This document shows, piece after piece, positions 1 through 25,291 of a stretch of 59,474 nt of DNA. The notes beneath the pieces were generated by a model that saw nothing but the letters and a program-made list of their open reading frames with translations, searched no databases and was not told where the DNA came from. Where the stretch lies: IMG/VR virus record IMGVR_UViG_3300044940_000380, positions 1 to 59,474 of that record. One strand, written 5' to 3'. How positions within the stretch are numbered: the first letter of the stretch is position 1; every line of letters starts with the position of its first letter. Both the position numbers and the translations under genes were made by a program. Source of the DNA: a virus (taxonomy: Duplodnaviria; Caudoviricetes).

Positions 1-295
1 TATAAACGAAATTTTTGTAATAAATTTAAAAAAATAAAAATAATTAAGTGAAAATACTTAAAATATTGATTTTAGAAATATTAAATCTTTAATAAGACTT
101 TTTGAATCTAAAATAGATTTAAACAAAATATATGAATGTGTTATATTTGAAATTTAAAAGTTTTCATTCTTATTTTTGAATTTTATTTATGAAGTTGTTA
201 ATTGCAAAAATATTATGATCAAAACTTCATTTATTTAAATAATTTTATTTTAATAAACAAATTTAATAAATAATTTTATTTTAAGGTACATTCAA

Positions 296-850
296 ATGAA
301 AATTTGGTTTGAAGGAAAAACAGTTGCTTTAATCGGAAACGCGATGTCGCTTTTTGATAAAAGTTATGGTACTGAAATAGATGAACATGATGTAGTTGTA
401 CGCCTAAATAAAGCAGCAATGTTATATACAAGATTTGATTGTGAATTAAGTCATGGAAAAAGAACAGATGTTTGGATGTTCTGGAATGCTGCAGAATACA
501 GAAACTTTTTTAATAAAACCACCGCAAAAAAGATGCATATGGGGCATCAACAAAGAGATTCTAATAATCTTTCAGATGTAGATTTTGTGTATCCATATGA
601 ATATTATTTAGAACTAAAACCAAAAGTTGGAAATCATCAAAATCCAACTACCGGTATTATGGCATTAGATTATATTAGTCGTTGTAATCCTTTGAAAATA
701 TCAGTCTATGGATTTGATTGGAAAGAAACACCTACTTTTACAGATCCATTGCGAAGAAGAGATAGAGGTTGTCCACACGATCATGCTGCAGAAAAAGAAT
801 ATTGTAAAAATGTGTTCTTTACTCAACCTCATATTATTCTTAAAAAATAA
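296..850 (+). CDS. Glycosyltransferase family 29 (sialyltransferase-like)
   Basis: Sialyl-motif-L-like VALIGNA..GTEIDEHDVVVRLN, motif-S-like PTTGIMAL..VYGFD, C-terminal HxxxxE (HDHAAE). Confidence 0.75.
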   Translation: MKIWFEGKTVALIGNAMSLFDKSYGTEIDEHDVVVRLNKAAMLYTRFDCELSHGKRTDVWMFWNAAEYRNFFNKTTAKKMHMGHQQRDSNNLSDVDFVYPYEYYLELKPKVGNHQNPTTGIMALDYISRCNPLKISVYGFDWKETPTFTDPLRRRDRGCPHDHAAEKEYCKNVFFTQPHIILKK

Positions 851-21998: not shown

Positions 21999-22517
21999 TT
22001 AAAATTCATTTGTGGTTCTTGGAATATTGTTTGGACTCATGATTGGAAGTTTTATATTTGGATTTGGAAATGAAGTTGGCCATCTAGTTGCTAAAAGTCT
22101 GTTTTTTGCAATTCTAGATATGTTTACAGAATTCGATTGATTCCCACCAAGAACATAATAGTCTGTTGAATCTTCACCTACTAAAAATCCTACGTGGCCG
22201 CCTTCATTTCGAGAAAAAACTGCTATAGCCCCATAAACTGGAACCGTTGGAACACCAAAATGAATCCAATTTCTGGCCCAGTATGGATTCTTTGCTAATT
22301 CACCAGTGAAAGTTTCATTTGGTAATGATTTTTTAATGGCAGTTTCAACATAATCGCCACACCAAGGAAGTGCTTTTGGATCTCCAAGTGTTTTTCCATC
22401 GCTTTTTAACCAAGCTTTTAATTCTGCATTATTGTTAATCTCGTGTAATCCAAAAACTTTTTTACCTTCTACTATCCAAGGTAATTCAGTTTCTTTCTTT
22501 TTGAATAATCCAAACAT
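21999..22517 (-). CDS. TIGR02594-family NlpC/P60-like peptidoglycan hydrolase
   Basis: PWCG.YV, ARNW, GGHVGF, VLGGNQSN.V. Confidence 0.85.
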   Translation of the reverse strand: MFGLFKKKETELPWIVEGKKVFGLHEINNNAELKAWLKSDGKTLGDPKALPWCGDYVETAIKKSLPNETFTGELAKNPYWARNWIHFGVPTVPVYGAIAVFSRNEGGHVGFLVGEDSTDYYVLGGNQSNSVNISRIAKNRLLATRWPTSFPNPNIKLPIMSPNNIPRTTNEF

Positions 22518-22789
22518 ATTATTTCCTTTTATTGTTAAATCTATACATATATATATTTATCAAAATAAAGAAATCATCTATAAGTAATAAACAACAATTT
22601 TTTGAGTTTGAATAAATTTTCATTGATAAAATTTACTATTTTAGAATCAAATATGTTTTGGATTTTCTTATAATTATGGTTTATTATTGAATTAAAATAA
22701 TTTAATTCATTTATTTTGAAAAAATGTGTTGACATTAACCTAAAAATATTGTATTTCTTAATTACAAAGTAAGAATCGAGAATGGACTC

Positions 22790-22963
22790 ATGATCTACGC
22801 TGTCTATGATACTCAATTCGATACTCTGGATAGCCTCAAGGGGCTCAAAATTATCAATCATCTTGATGCTGTCTATGATGATTTTGATTCAATGCTGAAT
22901 GATTGGGCAGATCATATTATGGCCGGTACTCATGTCTTCTTTGTTCTTTTGGACGACAAATAA
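22790..22963 (+). CDS. Small protein (57 aa) absent from ORF track
   Basis: TTGACA promoter at 22729, GGA RBS, hairpin terminator near 22990-23020. Confidence 0.6.
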   Translation: MIYAVYDTQFDTLDSLKGLKIINHLDAVYDDFDSMLNDWADHIMAGTHVFFVLLDDK

Positions 22964-23243
22964 TTTATAACAAAAATAGAAATTTAAGAAACTATCATGC
23001 TAATTTAGCAGATAGTTTTTTATGAATATTACGAAATTACAAAAATAAATAAAAAAAATGAATAACAATCATTATATAGAATTAATTAATATTTTTTCTA
23101 AACACTATATCATTTTCTGTTGACATTCATCAAAAATAGTATATACTGATATTCGAAGAAAACGGTTGATGAATAAGTTTGAATGAAAATGATGAATTTT
23201 TAATGAATTAAATTAACTTATGCGATTTATATTTAAGATTTTT

Positions 23244-23321
23244 GGGTCTCTGGTGTAATCGGTTAACACACTCGCCTCATAAGCGATGAGATTCGCGGTT
23301 CGAATCCGCGGAGACCTACCA
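23244..23321 (+). tRNA. tRNA with CAT anticodon (elongator Met or Ile2)
   Basis: Acceptor GGGTCTC/GAGACCT, loop CTCATAA, GGTTCGAATCC, CCA; lacks initiator features. Confidence 0.85.
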
Positions 23322-23336
23322 AAGTAATTTAGTATT

Positions 23337-23370
23337 GCTTACTTACTTCAGTTGGATAGAGCAAGTGCCT
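23337..23370 (+). pseudogene. 5' half remnant of a tRNA (Arg-like D arm)
   Basis: CAGTTGGATAGAGCAAGTGCCT then abrupt AT-rich sequence. Confidence 0.4.
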
Positions 23371-23405
23371 AAATTTAAATAAATAAATTAAAGATGATTT
23401 TTGAT

Positions 23406-23484
23406 GGGCCCGTAGCTCAGCTGGATTTAGAGCAGAGAACTTCTAATTCTCAGGTCGTAGGTTCGAGTCCTACCGGGTTCGCCA
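23406..23484 (+). tRNA. tRNA-Arg(TCT)
   Basis: Canonical cloverleaf; GAGAA-CTTCTAA-TTCTC; GGTTCGAGTCC; CCA. Confidence 0.95.
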
Positions 23485-23813
23485 TAAACCATCTTTGATT
23501 TAAAAGAGATTTTTTATATCAGGTCTACAAGTATTGTAAAAAAGAATTTAGTAAAAAGGATATAGCTAATCATAGCAGATGGTGTGATTTTAATCATCAA
23601 CAAACAATTATGCTAAAACATAGATCATTTGTTGACCTTCCAGAGTATGATAGATACCTCGATTCTAAAAACAAACGTGCTATAAAAGTCCAAGAAAATA
23701 AACTAAAAATGTTGTTGACACGACATAAAAACATTGATATATTTGATTCACTTGAAGGTTATAGAACTTTTACTATTGAAGATTAGAATTTCTTAGGAAG
23801 CGCCAAGTTTAAT

Positions 23814-23972
23814 CGTCCTAGTACCCGGGGCGATAGAGAAAGCCTGTCTCTTTACGCGGGTTTTTCTTGAGTGGGAATTAACCCATAATTAGTAAAGATA
23901 CGGTTACGCTGCCGCTCGGCGTAACAAGAGATCAATGCACACTGAGTTATTCGGGGTGTATAGGGGCGGCCA
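23814..23972 (+). ncRNA. Putative structured ncRNA ending in CCA
   Basis: GC-rich island with several hairpins; promoter 23715-23743; 5' CGTCCT can pair with 3' GGGGCG before G-CCA. Confidence 0.55.
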
Positions 23973-23979
23973 TATTTTT

Positions 23980-24058
23980 GGGGAATGGGACTGCTTGTGG
24001 TGGTCACCGAGTTTGCACCTCGGACATCAGGTGGGTTAGAATCCCACATTCTCCACCA
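23980..24058 (+). tRNA. Atypical tRNA-Ala(TGC)
   Basis: Acceptor GGGGAAT/ATTCTCC with G3:U70; CCGAG-TTTGCAC-CTCGG; CCA; non-canonical position 8, D loop and T loop. Confidence 0.8.
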
Positions 24059-24290
24059 AAAAACAAAAGATTGATCGTAGCAAAATAAAAAAGAAATTAG
24101 AAATTCAAAAGTTAATAAACTTAATGATATATTTGACAAATAACTCATAATATTTTATCATAGTAGAAAAAAGATCAATAGTTTTATCATGATCATTTGT
24201 TGACTGTCGATATGTTAAATTTTGTTGTTGACATTCATCTGTGAATATGATATATATTATATAGAAAATAAAAAAACTGCTTTTTGACAA

Positions 24291-24451
24291 TATAATGGCA
24301 CTGGCATAAAACGCACCGATGAGCTGGCTGTCGTAAACCCAGTGCTTTTATAAGTCTCTCGGATCTATTGGTTCGACATTTTTTCTGACAGTAACCCTGC
24401 CGACAAACTGGTTGTGGTAAACTCAGAAAAAGAAACCAAAGATCCGAGAGA
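24291..24451 (+). ncRNA. Putative ncRNA: two hairpins each capped by a related 34-nt loop motif
   Basis: GCACTGG/CCAGTGC and TCTCTCGGATCT/AGATCCGAGAGA stems; promoter 24228-24256. Confidence 0.65.
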
Positions 24452-24517
24452 AGCTAAAAAATACTATCTCAAATATATTTAATATTAACTAAAGAGCATT
24501 AATCATATTTAAATTTT

Positions 24518-24595
24518 GCCCTGATGGTGAAATTGGTAAACACAACGGACTTAAAATCCGTCTTTTTGTGGGTTCGAGTCCCACTCAGGGTACCA
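24518..24595 (+). tRNA. tRNA-Leu(TAA)
   Basis: GCCCTGA/TCAGGGT, ACGGA-CTTAAAA-TCCGT, GGTTCGAGTCC, CCA; short variable region. Confidence 0.9.
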
Positions 24596-24601
24596 ATAAT
24601 T

Positions 24602-24675
24602 GCGGGTGTGATGTAATGGTAGCTTCTCAGCCTTCCAAGCTGATGGTACGGGTTCGATTCCCGTCACCCGCTCCA
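24602..24675 (+). tRNA. tRNA-Gly(TCC)
   Basis: GCGGGTG/CACCCGC, TCAGC-CTTCCAA-GCTGA, U73, CCA. Confidence 0.95.
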
Positions 24676-24743
24676 AGTTAATATAATTTATTTAAGCTTC
24701 TACAACGAAATTGATATACGTAACAAATTCAAATTAAATATTT

Positions 24744-24820
24744 TTCCGCCTTAGCTTAGTTGGCAGAGCAAGTAGCTGTTAATCACTGAGTCGTAGGTTC
24801 AAGCCATACAGACGAAACCT
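24744..24820 (+). pseudogene. Degenerate tRNA-Asn(GTT), second copy
   Basis: TAGCTTAGTTGGCAGAGC D arm, CTGTTAA loop, GGTTCAAG; stems broken, no CCA. Confidence 0.55.
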
Positions 24821-25291
24821 ATTTTGATTTAAACTTTGTCATTCAACCAAATTTATCAATTAAATCAGATTTTACTTTTTGAATAAAAGTTTATAATAAT
24901 TCTTATAATATGATAAAATTGTAGACACATAAACTTAAAGCATTTGTAATGAAAATCATAGAAGTTTGAATTTATCTATAAGTATCAATATTTCATTAAT
25001 AATTTTTTTTACATTTTTTTATTGTAAAAAATAGAAATATTGTTAATAATATTTTTGAATGGTGAATAAGATATTTAATCTTATTCGCCTTGTTTATATT
25101 ATTGTTTTGATTAATTTACATATAAAATAAATAAACAAAAAATGATATCAAAAATAATATTGATTACAAAGAAAATTATTTCTTAAATTTTAAGAAAAAC
25201 TCATTAATAACTTTTAATATAAAATGCTTTAAAAGTAAAAAACTTTAATTCATAATATCAAAAAATTCATTATTTATAGGAGATATTTTAA

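What the first reader, a model, noticed from the sequence alone, without database searches (positions are those of the whole stretch)
23814..23972. Second structured non-tRNA RNA with a tRNA-like CCA end, directly upstream of tRNA-Ala
Seen: GC-rich non-coding island after promoter 23715-23743. Hairpins include GTTACGCTG/CGGCGTAAC (23903-23925), TGGG/CCCA, GAAAGCCTG/CGGGTTTTT and TGCAC..GTGTA. The 5' CGTCCT can pair with the 3' GGGGCG, followed by G-CCA, as in an acceptor stem; a competing GGGGCG at 23827 permits an alternative fold. Established: T4 encodes stable non-tRNA RNAs of unknown function in its tRNA cluster. Inference: a processed tRNA-mimic or decoy RNA.
Basis: partly seen in the sequence, partly recalled or inferred. 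Interest (0 to 1): 0.7.

Follow-up and report, generated by a model that had tools for sequence, protein, structure and literature searches.

The report
New folded RNA in phage tRNA arrays
The stretch is a real, conserved, folded non-coding RNA that a few uncultured phages carry among their tRNA genes, but it is not shaped like a tRNA, its "CCA end" is a quirk of this one copy, and its job is unknown.

Summary
Window 23812-23971 is a genuine structured RNA gene, on the same strand as the tRNAs and 8 nt upstream of an odd tRNA-Ala(UGC). Each one that varies keeps its pairing through compensating changes, both in two divergent strain contigs from the same sample and in three unrelated metagenome contigs (L093, L094, L095).

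These four loci share no proteins. In three of them a ~80-nt 3' core is letter-identical over 35 + 12 nt, better kept than the neighbouring tRNAs. No Rfam family matches, and nothing matches in GenBank phages, IMG/VR or GTDB species genomes.

The tRNA-like reading fails:
- The 5' CGUCC pairs with the nearby GGGGCG (hairpin 1, which covaries with L094), not with the 3' GGGGCG.
- The 3' tail finds no better upstream partner than shuffled sequence does.
- The end reads CCG, not CCA, in 3 of 4 loci.

Best reading: a new family of passenger RNAs in phage tRNA arrays, cut out by the tRNA-processing enzymes, with a probable loop-tail pseudoknot. It resembles T4 rnaC/rnaD in kind but is unrelated to them. 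Function is unknown. This scan has already met other, different RNA families in phage tRNA arrays.

The parts
23715..23743 (+). sigma-70-like promoter (TTGACA, 17 nt, TATATT, TG extension) that would start the RNA + tRNA-Ala transcript near 23750
   Evidence: 11 of 12 matches. This is a consensus match only. The scan found 31 promoter-like sites in the region against 24.6 expected from shuffles.
23812..23834 (+). Hairpin 1: AUCGUCCU pairs with GGGGCGAU, 7-nt loop. It uses up the supposed 5' acceptor strand.
   Evidence: Folds. L094 has AUCAACC/GGUUGAU at the same place before the shared AUAGA, with two middle pairs changed on both sides (G-C to A-U, U-G to A-U; read).
23836..23868 (+). Hairpin 2a: 12 pairs with one bulge
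   Evidence: 12 of 12 pairs are standard in both the window and L094, and 3 pairs changed on both sides; in strain contig 2, 23843 C>A goes with 23860 G>T.
23871..23886 (+). Hairpin 2b (GUGGG / CCCAU)
   Evidence: The stem is identical in L094, so it is uninformative. Both strain contigs change 23871 G>C and insert a G after 23886.
23903..23925 (+). Hairpin 3: 9 pairs with an invariant 5-nt loop CCGCU. This is the start of the conserved 3' core.
   Evidence: 36 of 36 cells paired across 4 loci; 23906 A>G goes with 23922 T>C (both strain contigs); 23907 C>T goes with 23921 G>A (contig 2).
23926..23934 (+). Single-stranded purine-rich linker AAGAGAU(C)A. It is invariant except for one extra C at 23933 that only the window copy has.
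   Evidence: both strain contigs lack one base at 23932/23933.
23935..23961 (+). Hairpin 4: variable sequence with kept pairing
   Evidence: pair 48:71 is A-U, G-C or G-U, and pair 50:69 is A-U, C-G, U-A or U-G across the 4 loci; 23939 A>G goes with 23957 T>C.
23962..23971 (+). Invariant 3' tail AGGGGCGGCC, the probable pseudoknot partner of the hairpin-3 loop
   Evidence: invariant; L095 has one G fewer; 7-bp duplex with the hairpin-3 apex at -14.4 kcal/mol, the best partner in each of the 4 RNAs; 51 of 2000 tail shuffles and 101 of 2000 loop shuffles are as good.
23972..23979 (+). AU-rich spacer and leader of the next tRNA. The 'A' of the supposed CCA is its first base.
   Evidence: the spacer is 6-8 nt with U at -1 in 4 of 4 loci. 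The first base is A here and G in the other three.
23980..24058 (+). tRNA-Ala(UGC), atypical D arm, G3:U70 present
   Evidence: ARAGORN. It is below the Rfam tRNA threshold. It is 76-84% identical to the tRNA-Ala of T5-like phages.

Best explanation
Window ~23812-23971 encodes a member of a small, uncatalogued family of 150-240-nt structured RNAs that ride inside the tRNA gene arrays of uncultured phages.

TRANSCRIPTION AND PROCESSING (inferred). The RNA is transcribed on the tRNA strand. In the window it is made together with tRNA-Ala from its own early-type promoter; elsewhere it lies between two tRNAs. It is freed by the enzymes that process the tRNAs. RNase P cutting at the 5' end of the tRNA 6-8 nt downstream would make its 3' end, which exonucleases then trim back to the folded core. 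Its 5' end would come from tRNA 3' processing of the upstream tRNA, or from the transcription start or RNase E.

FOLD. The RNA has a variable 5' domain (hairpins 1, 2a, 2b) and a strongly conserved 3' core. The core is a 9-bp hairpin with loop CCGCU, an invariant purine-rich linker, a covarying hairpin, and an invariant tail GGGGCGGCC. The tail probably pairs with the hairpin-3 loop to lock the 3' end in a pseudoknot. The hairpins are shown by compensating changes. The pseudoknot, the processing and the stability are inferred.

FUNCTION. It most likely acts in trans as a stable RNA that binds one invariant partner, either a protein or an RNA of the host or phage translation/tRNA apparatus. It is not a tRNA mimic.
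For: (1) HOMOLOGUES. Three other contigs hold the RNA, always on the tRNA strand: L093, L094, L095. The covariance model scores them at 99.7-105 bits and finds nothing else in 1.2 Mb of phage loci.

(2) UNRELATED CONTEXTS. No window ORF of 50 aa or more matches these contigs, except the antisense frame across the RNA itself. The flanking tRNA-Pro and tRNA-Ala genes differ widely. Yet 35 + 12 nt of the core are identical in L093-L095.

(3) COMPENSATING CHANGES.
- Across the 4 loci, 97.1% of 68 cells are paired, against 26-46% when the partners are slid. Two pairs changed on both sides.
- Hairpin 2a, window against L094: 3 pairs changed on both sides and 100% paired.
- Hairpin 1 covaries with L094.
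- In strain contig 2 from run X1, 10 pairs of the fold are touched. Eight stay standard pairs, 4 of them by changes on both sides (23843/23860, 23906/23922, 23907/23921, 23939/23957), and 2 are broken.

(4) SPACING. The next tRNA or tRNA-like gene starts 6-8 nt downstream, with U at -1, in 4 of 4 loci.

(5) PSEUDOKNOT. The loop-tail duplex is -14.4 kcal/mol and is the best partner of the hairpin-3 apex in all 4 RNAs.

(6) PRECEDENT. T4 keeps rnaD and rnaC 1-6 nt apart behind tRNA-Arg.
Against: - There is no expression evidence. No listed run that holds the stretch is on record as RNA, so ends and stability are inferred.
- The family is only four loci plus two strain contigs from the window's own sample.
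- With four sequences the shuffle control is weak: 25 to 100 of 500 shuffles reach the observed covariation measures, and 83 of 500 do so for the two-sequence 5' domain.
- Folding energy is unremarkable: z = -1.85, and -0.37 to -2.52 for the four loci.
- The loop and tail never vary, so the pseudoknot cannot be tested by covariation. RNAalifold instead prefers a long-range stem that uses the same tail.
- 33 of the 41 differences of strain contig 5 were not listed, so that contig is only partly evaluated.
- No partner or function is identified.
Confidence: 0.65

Rival explanations
1. It is a cis-acting structured leader. The RNA is not a product in its own right but the 5' leader of the next tRNA. 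It would control or assist that tRNA's processing (RNase P access) or protect the precursor, and it would be degraded after cleavage.
For: It is always 6-8 nt upstream of a tRNA or tRNA-like gene (4 of 4 loci). In the window it shares one promoter with tRNA-Ala. In strain contig 2 the RNA and tRNA-Ala stay together while the upstream context is replaced (joint 23319 to 23827).
Against: The downstream gene is not the same: tRNA-Ala in 3 loci, a non-canonical tRNA-like gene in L093. The three tRNA-Ala genes differ strongly while the core is letter-identical, which is not expected if the core works through the tRNA body. No terminator-like element is present. The 6-8 nt spacing is simply the normal spacing in these arrays (e.g. 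24595/24602).
Confidence: 0.15
2. It is a small catalytic or ligand-binding pseudoknot RNA, i.e. a new self-cleaving ribozyme or aptamer serving tRNA-array processing. Its invariant loop, linker and tail would form the active site, and hairpin 4 would be a variable peripheral stem.
For: The conservation pattern is typical of such RNAs: invariant unpaired segments, one stem that varies freely, and a likely pseudoknot. Phage tRNA genes are known to carry adjacent ribozymes; theta ribozymes are proposed to cut tRNA 3' trailers (PMC10879173, passages read).
Against: No ribozyme or riboswitch family in Rfam 15 matches, even at E up to 10 on the 196-nt stretch. The core lies 60-170 nt from the upstream tRNA, not within 5 nt as theta ribozymes do. 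No cleavage data exist. RNase P already provides the downstream cut.
Confidence: 0.08
3. One reading: a tRNA mimic whose 5' CGUCCU and 3' GGGGCG form an acceptor stem ending in G-CCA, so that it is handled like a tRNA (RNase P, CCA enzyme, perhaps a synthetase) and acts as a decoy.
For: The pairing and the GCCA exist in the window copy. If the loop-tail pseudoknot forms, the window copy would present a helix with a 3' (G)CCA overhang. This recalls the pseudoknotted acceptor arms of plant-virus tRNA-like structures (recalled, not tested).
Against: The CCA is present in 1 of 4 loci; the others read GGCCG, although their tRNA genes encode CCA. The 5' strand is used by the conserved hairpin 1. The tail-upstream duplex is no better than shuffles in any of the 4 loci. 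ARAGORN and the Rfam tRNA, tmRNA and YrlA models give no hit. No G3:U70 can be formed in either acceptor register (read).
Confidence: 0.05
4. It is not an RNA gene. The identical 35 + 12 nt would be a DNA-level signal or a recently transferred patch, for example a target or by-product of the homing endonucleases that populate these tRNA arrays.
For: GIY-YIG-type homing endonuclease genes lie in the same arrays: L094 2525-3217 and 4345-4941 match phrog_314 at 7e-49 and 1e-43. The letter-identical blocks sit in otherwise unrelated contigs.
Against: Recent transfer would not leave hairpin 4, which lies between the two identical blocks, about half diverged yet still paired. Compensating changes in four hairpins indicate selection on a folded single strand. 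The element is on the tRNA strand in 4 of 4 loci.
Confidence: 0.05

Closest known systems
Phage T4 stable RNAs rnaC (species 1) and rnaD (species 2)
   Same: They are non-tRNA RNA genes of 119-139 nt inside a phage tRNA cluster. They lie on the tRNA strand and are separated from the neighbouring tRNA or RNA gene by 1-6 nt. They are of unknown function according to the record's notes.
   Different: There is no sequence or model similarity: R1 finds nothing in the whole T4 genome. T4 rnaC ends in a canonical T-arm followed by an acceptor-like strand, and this RNA has neither. This family has a variable 5' domain plus an invariant pseudoknot-like core.
HDV-like theta ribozymes next to phage tRNA genes (PMC10879173; passages read)
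   Same: They are small structured RNAs tied to phage tRNA genes and proposed to serve tRNA end-processing. Both have a pseudoknotted core.
   Different: Theta ribozymes lie within 5 nt of the tRNA they serve and have the HDV fold. Here the core is 60-170 nt from the upstream tRNA, and no HDV-like Rfam model matches.
YrlA / bacterial Y RNA-like RNAs (Rfam RF02553)
   Same: They are structured RNAs found in phage and bacterial RNA-gene clusters. A YrlA-like module does lie in the same array in L093, about 130 nt downstream (43 bits, E 1e-8, below the gathering score of 69).
   Different: The RNA studied here gives no YrlA hit. It has no tRNA-like module and no long terminal stem.
Other uncatalogued structured RNAs in phage tRNA arrays noted by this scan (e.g. 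e1-5786791, e1-5856252)
   Same: Same setting and same state of knowledge: GC-rich folded RNA, no Rfam family, compensating changes, function unknown (AI notes, not checked here).
   Different: No look-alike of this core was found among the scan's windows, so this is a separate, rarer family.

Membership tests
tRNA / tRNA-like RNA | 5' and 3' ends pair in a 7-bp acceptor stem | tested here: not met
   The 5' strand is used by the conserved local hairpin 1. The 3' tail pairs with upstream sequence no better than with shuffles (77-124 of 500).
tRNA / tRNA-like RNA | Conserved 3' N-CCA end | tested here: not met
   GGCCA occurs only in the window. L093, L094 and L095 read GGCCG, while their tRNA genes encode CCA.
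tRNA / tRNA-like RNA | T arm, D arm or cloverleaf detectable by tRNA models | tested here: not met
   ARAGORN makes no call. The Rfam tRNA, tRNA-Sec and tmRNA models give no hit on 23790-23979, even at E up to 10.
T4 rnaC / rnaD | Homology to the T4 RNAs in sequence or structure | tested here: not met
   Model R1 has no match at E up to 1 in the 168,903-nt T4 record. blastn of the window stretch and of the L094 copy against 50,697 phage records matched only the tRNA-Ala, or nothing.
T4 rnaC / rnaD | Non-tRNA RNA gene inside a tRNA cluster, same strand, a few nt from the next RNA gene | tested here: met
   4 of 4 loci.
HDV-like theta ribozyme | Cleavage site within about 5 nt of a tRNA; HDV-type nested double pseudoknot | tested here: not met
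   The distance to the upstream tRNA is 60-170 nt for the core. No HDV-like Rfam hit.
tmRNA or tmRNA-derived tag template | tRNA-like domain with a tag reading frame ending in a conserved stop | tested here: not met
   ARAGORN finds no tmRNA. The only frame with an Ala start and a stop runs through the 9-bp hairpin 3. It is changed non-synonymously by the compensating pair 23921/23922 and loses its stop in the window through the extra base at 23933.
YrlA (RF02553) | Match to the family model | tested here: not met
   No hit on the window RNA or on the L094 copy.
Any Rfam 15 family | Score at or near a family's gathering threshold | tested here: not met
   The best hits are 14.5 and 14.6 bits against thresholds of 95 and 70, and both are unrelated families.

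The most novel reading that the evidence does not exclude
The 80-nt core is a new functional RNA fold, either a self-cleaving ribozyme or a high-affinity pseudoknot. It would plug into the host's tRNA or translation machinery, for example by blocking or recruiting an RNase, a tRNA-modifying enzyme or an anticodon-nuclease defence. That would explain why its unpaired letters are held more rigidly than those of the phage's own tRNAs, and why it travels with tRNA-Ala.
Probability: 0.12. Interest if true: 0.7.

Novelty: new variant of a known kind. Interest (0 to 1): 0.4.

Why it matters
Phage tRNA clusters have been known for fifty years to hold non-tRNA stable RNAs (T4 species 1 and 2) whose function has never been found. 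This RNA adds an unrelated family with an unusually rigid core. Over 47 letters it is kept identical in three phage contigs that share nothing else detectable and whose tRNAs have drifted apart.

Conservation that tight points to one specific, invariant binding partner. The small size makes this a tractable object for pull-down, probing and structure work. It also warns that a 'CCA end' read off a single sequence is not evidence of tRNA mimicry.

Tried and rejected
RFAM. The whole window at gathering score, 3.7 kb at E up to 10, and 196-nt stretches of the window and of L094 gave nothing relevant.

GENBANK PHAGES. blastn of 23500-24100 hit 262 records, all through the tRNA-Ala only. Megablast of 10 kb found none. 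blastn of the L094 copy at E up to 1 found none.

IMG/VR.
- Four pattern scans found nothing.
- 9 loci around paralogues of the HEAT-repeat gene and 79 loci around the CHAP-domain gene hold no copy by blastn, nhmmer or model R1.
- Two other flanking proteins gave no loci.
- R1 found nothing in five whole HEAT-locus records, all fragments of 5-17% completeness.
- R1 found nothing in T4, S124, My1 or a 518-kb phage. L093's record was not held and was not searched.

GTDB SPECIES GENOMES. One pattern found none. A looser pattern gave 5 places, none of which is confirmed by R1; the best is 11.6 bits, E 6. They are taken as chance matches.

PROTEIN-DATABASE TRICK. I searched for the spurious antisense ORF that spans the core. 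It found only the window's own 98-aa ORF, and no shorter candidates.

EXPRESSION. No RNA holder was listed. All runs laid were DNA contigs, so no RNA ends could be read.

ALTERNATIVE LONG-RANGE STEM. RNAalifold prefers UACGGUUGC with GCGGCCGUA. I rejected it as the main fold. It has no pair changed on both sides and 3 broken cells, and it leaves the paired changes at 23921/23922 unexplained. My first count of it was entered one column off; the +1 slide row of that call is the intended structure (93% paired, no covariation).

OTHER READINGS CONSIDERED AND REJECTED.
- tmRNA-style tag frame: see the membership test.
- CRISPR-repeat mimic, antitoxin-RNA mimic or host-RNA mimic: no exact copy of the core in 185,579 species genomes. 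This excludes only exact copies.

NOT POSSIBLE OR NOT USED.
- Literature: 'species 1 RNA' with T4 and tRNA returned 0 papers. A broad ribozyme/tRNA-cluster search gave nothing on this RNA (search listing only). For the theta ribozyme paper I read passages only.
- Supplements were not consulted.

Full report
WHAT THE WINDOW IS. The window is a 59-kb fragment of an uncultured virus record, with completeness estimated at 33%. It is very AT-rich, with spacers at 10-25% GC. DNA runs labelled hot-spring or microbial-mat metagenome hold it. No GenBank phage is close: megablast of 10 kb found nothing. Bases 21.8-24.8 kb hold seven ARAGORN tRNA genes on the + strand, each group behind its own TTGACA/TATAAT-type site.

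THE OBSERVATION. The stretch 23814-23972 is a 43-54% GC island. It lies behind the promoter-like site at 23715-23743 (11 of 12 matches, TG extension) and 8 nt before tRNA-Ala(UGC) at 23980-24058.
- Folding energy alone is not remarkable: -51.9 kcal/mol, z = -1.85, and 7 of 200 shuffles fold as well.
- Nothing in Rfam 15 matches, at gathering score or at E up to 10.

VARIANTS IN THE SAME SAMPLE. Laying the contigs of four runs of one sample on 23100-24900 showed two divergent contigs in run X1.
- Record 5 covers 23647-24063 with 41 other letters and 8 gaps.
- Record 2 joins tRNA-Met, through 108 unrelated letters, to 23827-24063, with 32 other letters and 3 gaps.

I mapped the 22 listed substitutions onto the fold. 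In record 2, ten pairs are touched.
- Four are kept by changes on both sides: 23843/23860 C-G to A-U, 23906/23922 A-U to G-C, 23907/23921 C-G to U-A, and 23939/23957 A-U to G-C.
- Four are kept by a one-sided change to or from a wobble pair.
- Two are broken. One of these, 23871, comes with an inserted G after 23886 that may restore the pair.

Eight substitutions fall in unpaired positions. Record 5 shares the 23906/23922 double change. However, 33 of its 41 differences were not listed, so it is only partly evaluated. These contigs come from the sample that probably gave the window, so they are co-occurring strains and not independent phages.

HOMOLOGUES ELSEWHERE. A degenerate pattern for hairpin 3 found three metagenome contigs. 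blastn aligns them to the window as follows:
- L094 to 23832-23977 at 84% identity;
- L095 to 23899-23981 at 80%;
- L093 to 23895-23971 at 79%.

All three are phage tRNA arrays with 13, 6 and 9 tRNA genes, interspersed with homing-endonuclease and endolysin genes. None shares a detectable protein with the window. The RNA lies on the tRNA strand in 4 of 4 loci:
- between tRNA-Pro and tRNA-Ala in L094 and L095;
- between tRNA-Ala and an uncalled tRNA-like gene in L093;
- between a promoter and tRNA-Ala in the window.

The next RNA gene starts 6-8 nt after the conserved tail, with U at -1, in 4 of 4 loci.

ANATOMY. The alignments show a ~80-nt 3' core made of five parts:
- UACGG leading into hairpin 3 (9 pairs, loop CCGCU);
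- a purine-rich linker;
- hairpin 4;
- AUA;
- the tail GGGGCGGCC.

In L093-L095, 35 nt (hairpin 3 plus linker) and 12 nt (tail) are identical, while hairpin 4 between them is about half different. The window copy differs at three hairpin-3 positions and has one extra C at 23933, which both strain contigs lack.

On the four-locus alignment the two-hairpin structure has 97.1% of 68 cells paired, against 26-46% when partners are slid by 1-3 columns. Two pairs changed on both sides: columns 48:71 and 50:69, the latter with four different pair types. With only four sequences, 25-100 of 500 shuffles reach the observed measures.

The 5' domain is shared only with L094. Hairpin 2a keeps 12 of 12 pairs, with three changed on both sides. 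Hairpin 1 is a different sequence at the same place, before a shared AUAGA, with its two middle pairs changed on both sides. L093 and L095 have other, unalignable 5' parts, so family members range from about 150 to 240 nt.

THE tRNA-LIKE END. Three tests go against it.
1. The 5' CGUCC(U) is the 5' strand of the conserved hairpin 1.
2. In none of the four loci does the 3' tail find an upstream partner better than in shuffled upstream sequence: 124, 77, 85 and 78 of 500 shuffles are as good. In the window the best partner is not even CGUCCU.
3. The tail is followed by A only in the window. The other three read GGCCG, although the tRNA genes beside them encode CCA.

In addition, ARAGORN and the Rfam tRNA, tRNA-Sec, tmRNA and YrlA models do not see the stretch.

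WHAT THE TAIL DOES INSTEAD. The apex of hairpin 3 (GCCGCUC) is complementary to the tail (GGGCGGC). This gives 7 pairs at -14.4 kcal/mol. It is the best partner of that apex anywhere in each of the four RNAs, and only 51 of 2000 tail shuffles and 101 of 2000 loop shuffles do as well. An H-type pseudoknot, with the purine-rich linker and hairpin 4 as the long crossing loop, is sterically plausible and would bury the 3' end. Both strands are invariant, so covariation can neither prove nor disprove it.

RNAalifold prefers a long-range stem between UACGGUUGC and GCGGCCGUA. That stem has no covariation and three broken cells, two of them in the window. It also cannot explain the matched changes at 23921/23922, so I treat it at most as an alternative conformer.

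HOW IT MOST LIKELY WORKS. The RNA behaves as one more unit of a tRNA array.
- Shown: it is a conserved folded RNA-type element on the tRNA strand, with tRNA-like spacing to the next gene.
- Inferred from the established pathway of bacterial and T4 tRNA operon processing: RNase P cleavage at the downstream tRNA's 5' end releases it with a 6-8-nt trailer. Exonucleases trim this back to the folded (pseudoknotted) tail. The 5' end comes from processing of the upstream tRNA, or in the window from the promoter near 23750.
- Inferred from the conservation pattern: the unpaired loop, linker and tail are held identical while the phage tRNAs beside them diverge. This argues for a sequence-specific partner and trans action as a stable RNA.

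What the partner is remains unknown. No exact copy of the core exists in 185,579 species genomes, so it is not a literal copy of a host RNA or repeat.

THE tRNA-Ala LINK. tRNA-Ala(UGC) is the immediate neighbour in 4 of 4 loci, upstream in L093 and downstream in the others. Taking the RNA as placed at random among the slots of each array gives roughly 0.002. The arrangements may share ancestry, so I record this as unexplained rather than as evidence.

COMPARISON WITH WHAT IS KNOWN. The closest known kind is the pair of T4 stable RNAs, rnaC and rnaD, which lie 1-6 nt apart behind tRNA-Arg. There is no homology: R1 finds nothing in T4. T4 rnaC ends in a canonical T-arm plus an acceptor-like strand, which this RNA lacks. 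Theta ribozymes (PMC10879173; passages read) are also tied to phage tRNAs, but they abut the tRNA and have the HDV fold. R1 found only its four training loci in 1.2 Mb of phage loci. It found nothing in T4, two T5-like phages and a 518-kb phage, and nothing in five fragments related to the window by their HEAT-repeat genes. This scan's earlier notes list many other structured RNAs in phage tRNA arrays, but no look-alike of this core.

VERDICT. This is a new, rare family within a known and still unexplained kind, the non-tRNA RNAs of phage tRNA clusters. Interest is moderate: the setting is familiar and the function is unknown, but the rigid core is a good handle for experiments.

Noticed in passing
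L093:13755-13837 (+) and L094:about 250-335 (-): A conserved tRNA-shaped gene lies directly after the RNA (L093) or after tRNA-Ala (L094). It has a long acceptor stem, a canonical T arm and an encoded CCA. Its anticodon-arm region is irregular, with loops of 5-6 nt, and it has a long extra arm. ARAGORN does not call it. The Rfam tRNA-Sec model gives 33.5 bits, below the threshold of 47. It is probably a non-decoding tRNA look-alike.
   Followed up: partly
L093:13882-13944 (+): The tRNA-like module of a Y RNA-like (YrlA, RF02553) RNA sits in the same phage tRNA array. It scores 43 bits, E 1e-8, below the gathering score of 69.
   Followed up: no
window 23980-24058: The tRNA-Ala(UGC) is atypical, with a 3-bp D stem, an 11-nt D loop and an A in place of the usual C in the T loop. 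It falls below the Rfam tRNA threshold. It is nevertheless 76-84% identical to the tRNA-Ala of T5-like phages of enterobacteria, in 262 records, although the rest of the window is unrelated to them.
   Followed up: partly
L090:1229-1504 (Salmonella phage S124, MH370375.1 78251-78526): About 275 nt without annotation, led by a promoter-like TTGTTATAAT stretch, lie directly upstream of the homologous tRNA-Ala of a T5-like phage. This is possibly another unannotated RNA gene. Model R1 does not match it.
   Followed up: partly
window 24290-24470 and 22760-22960: Two further GC-rich islands lie in the tRNA cluster, each behind TTGACA-type promoter-like sites (24133-24161; 22731 and 24229 read). The first island has a terminator-like hairpin at 24359-24376. 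They have no match in L093-L095.
   Followed up: no
window 23330-23375: A short stretch after tRNA-Met resembles a tRNA D-arm region (…CAGTTGGATAGAGCA…), but no tRNA is called there. It may be a tRNA remnant.
   Followed up: no
window 21999-22517 (-): A CHAP-domain / tail-lysozyme-like gene (phrog_1259, 2e-32) sits on the opposite strand inside the tRNA cluster. Its relatives lie inside dense tRNA arrays (19-31 tRNA genes per 10-16 kb) in 6 of the 23 CHAP loci scanned; two of those records are 318 kb and 519 kb long. Three of these arrays include tRNAs with anticodon CUA.
   Followed up: partly
window 23319-23827 (strain contig 2 of run X1): A co-occurring strain replaces tRNA-Arg, the 58-codon ORF and the promoter with 108 unrelated letters, but keeps the RNA and tRNA-Ala together. 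It also skips 24063-24271. The array is therefore being reshuffled in modules.
   Followed up: no
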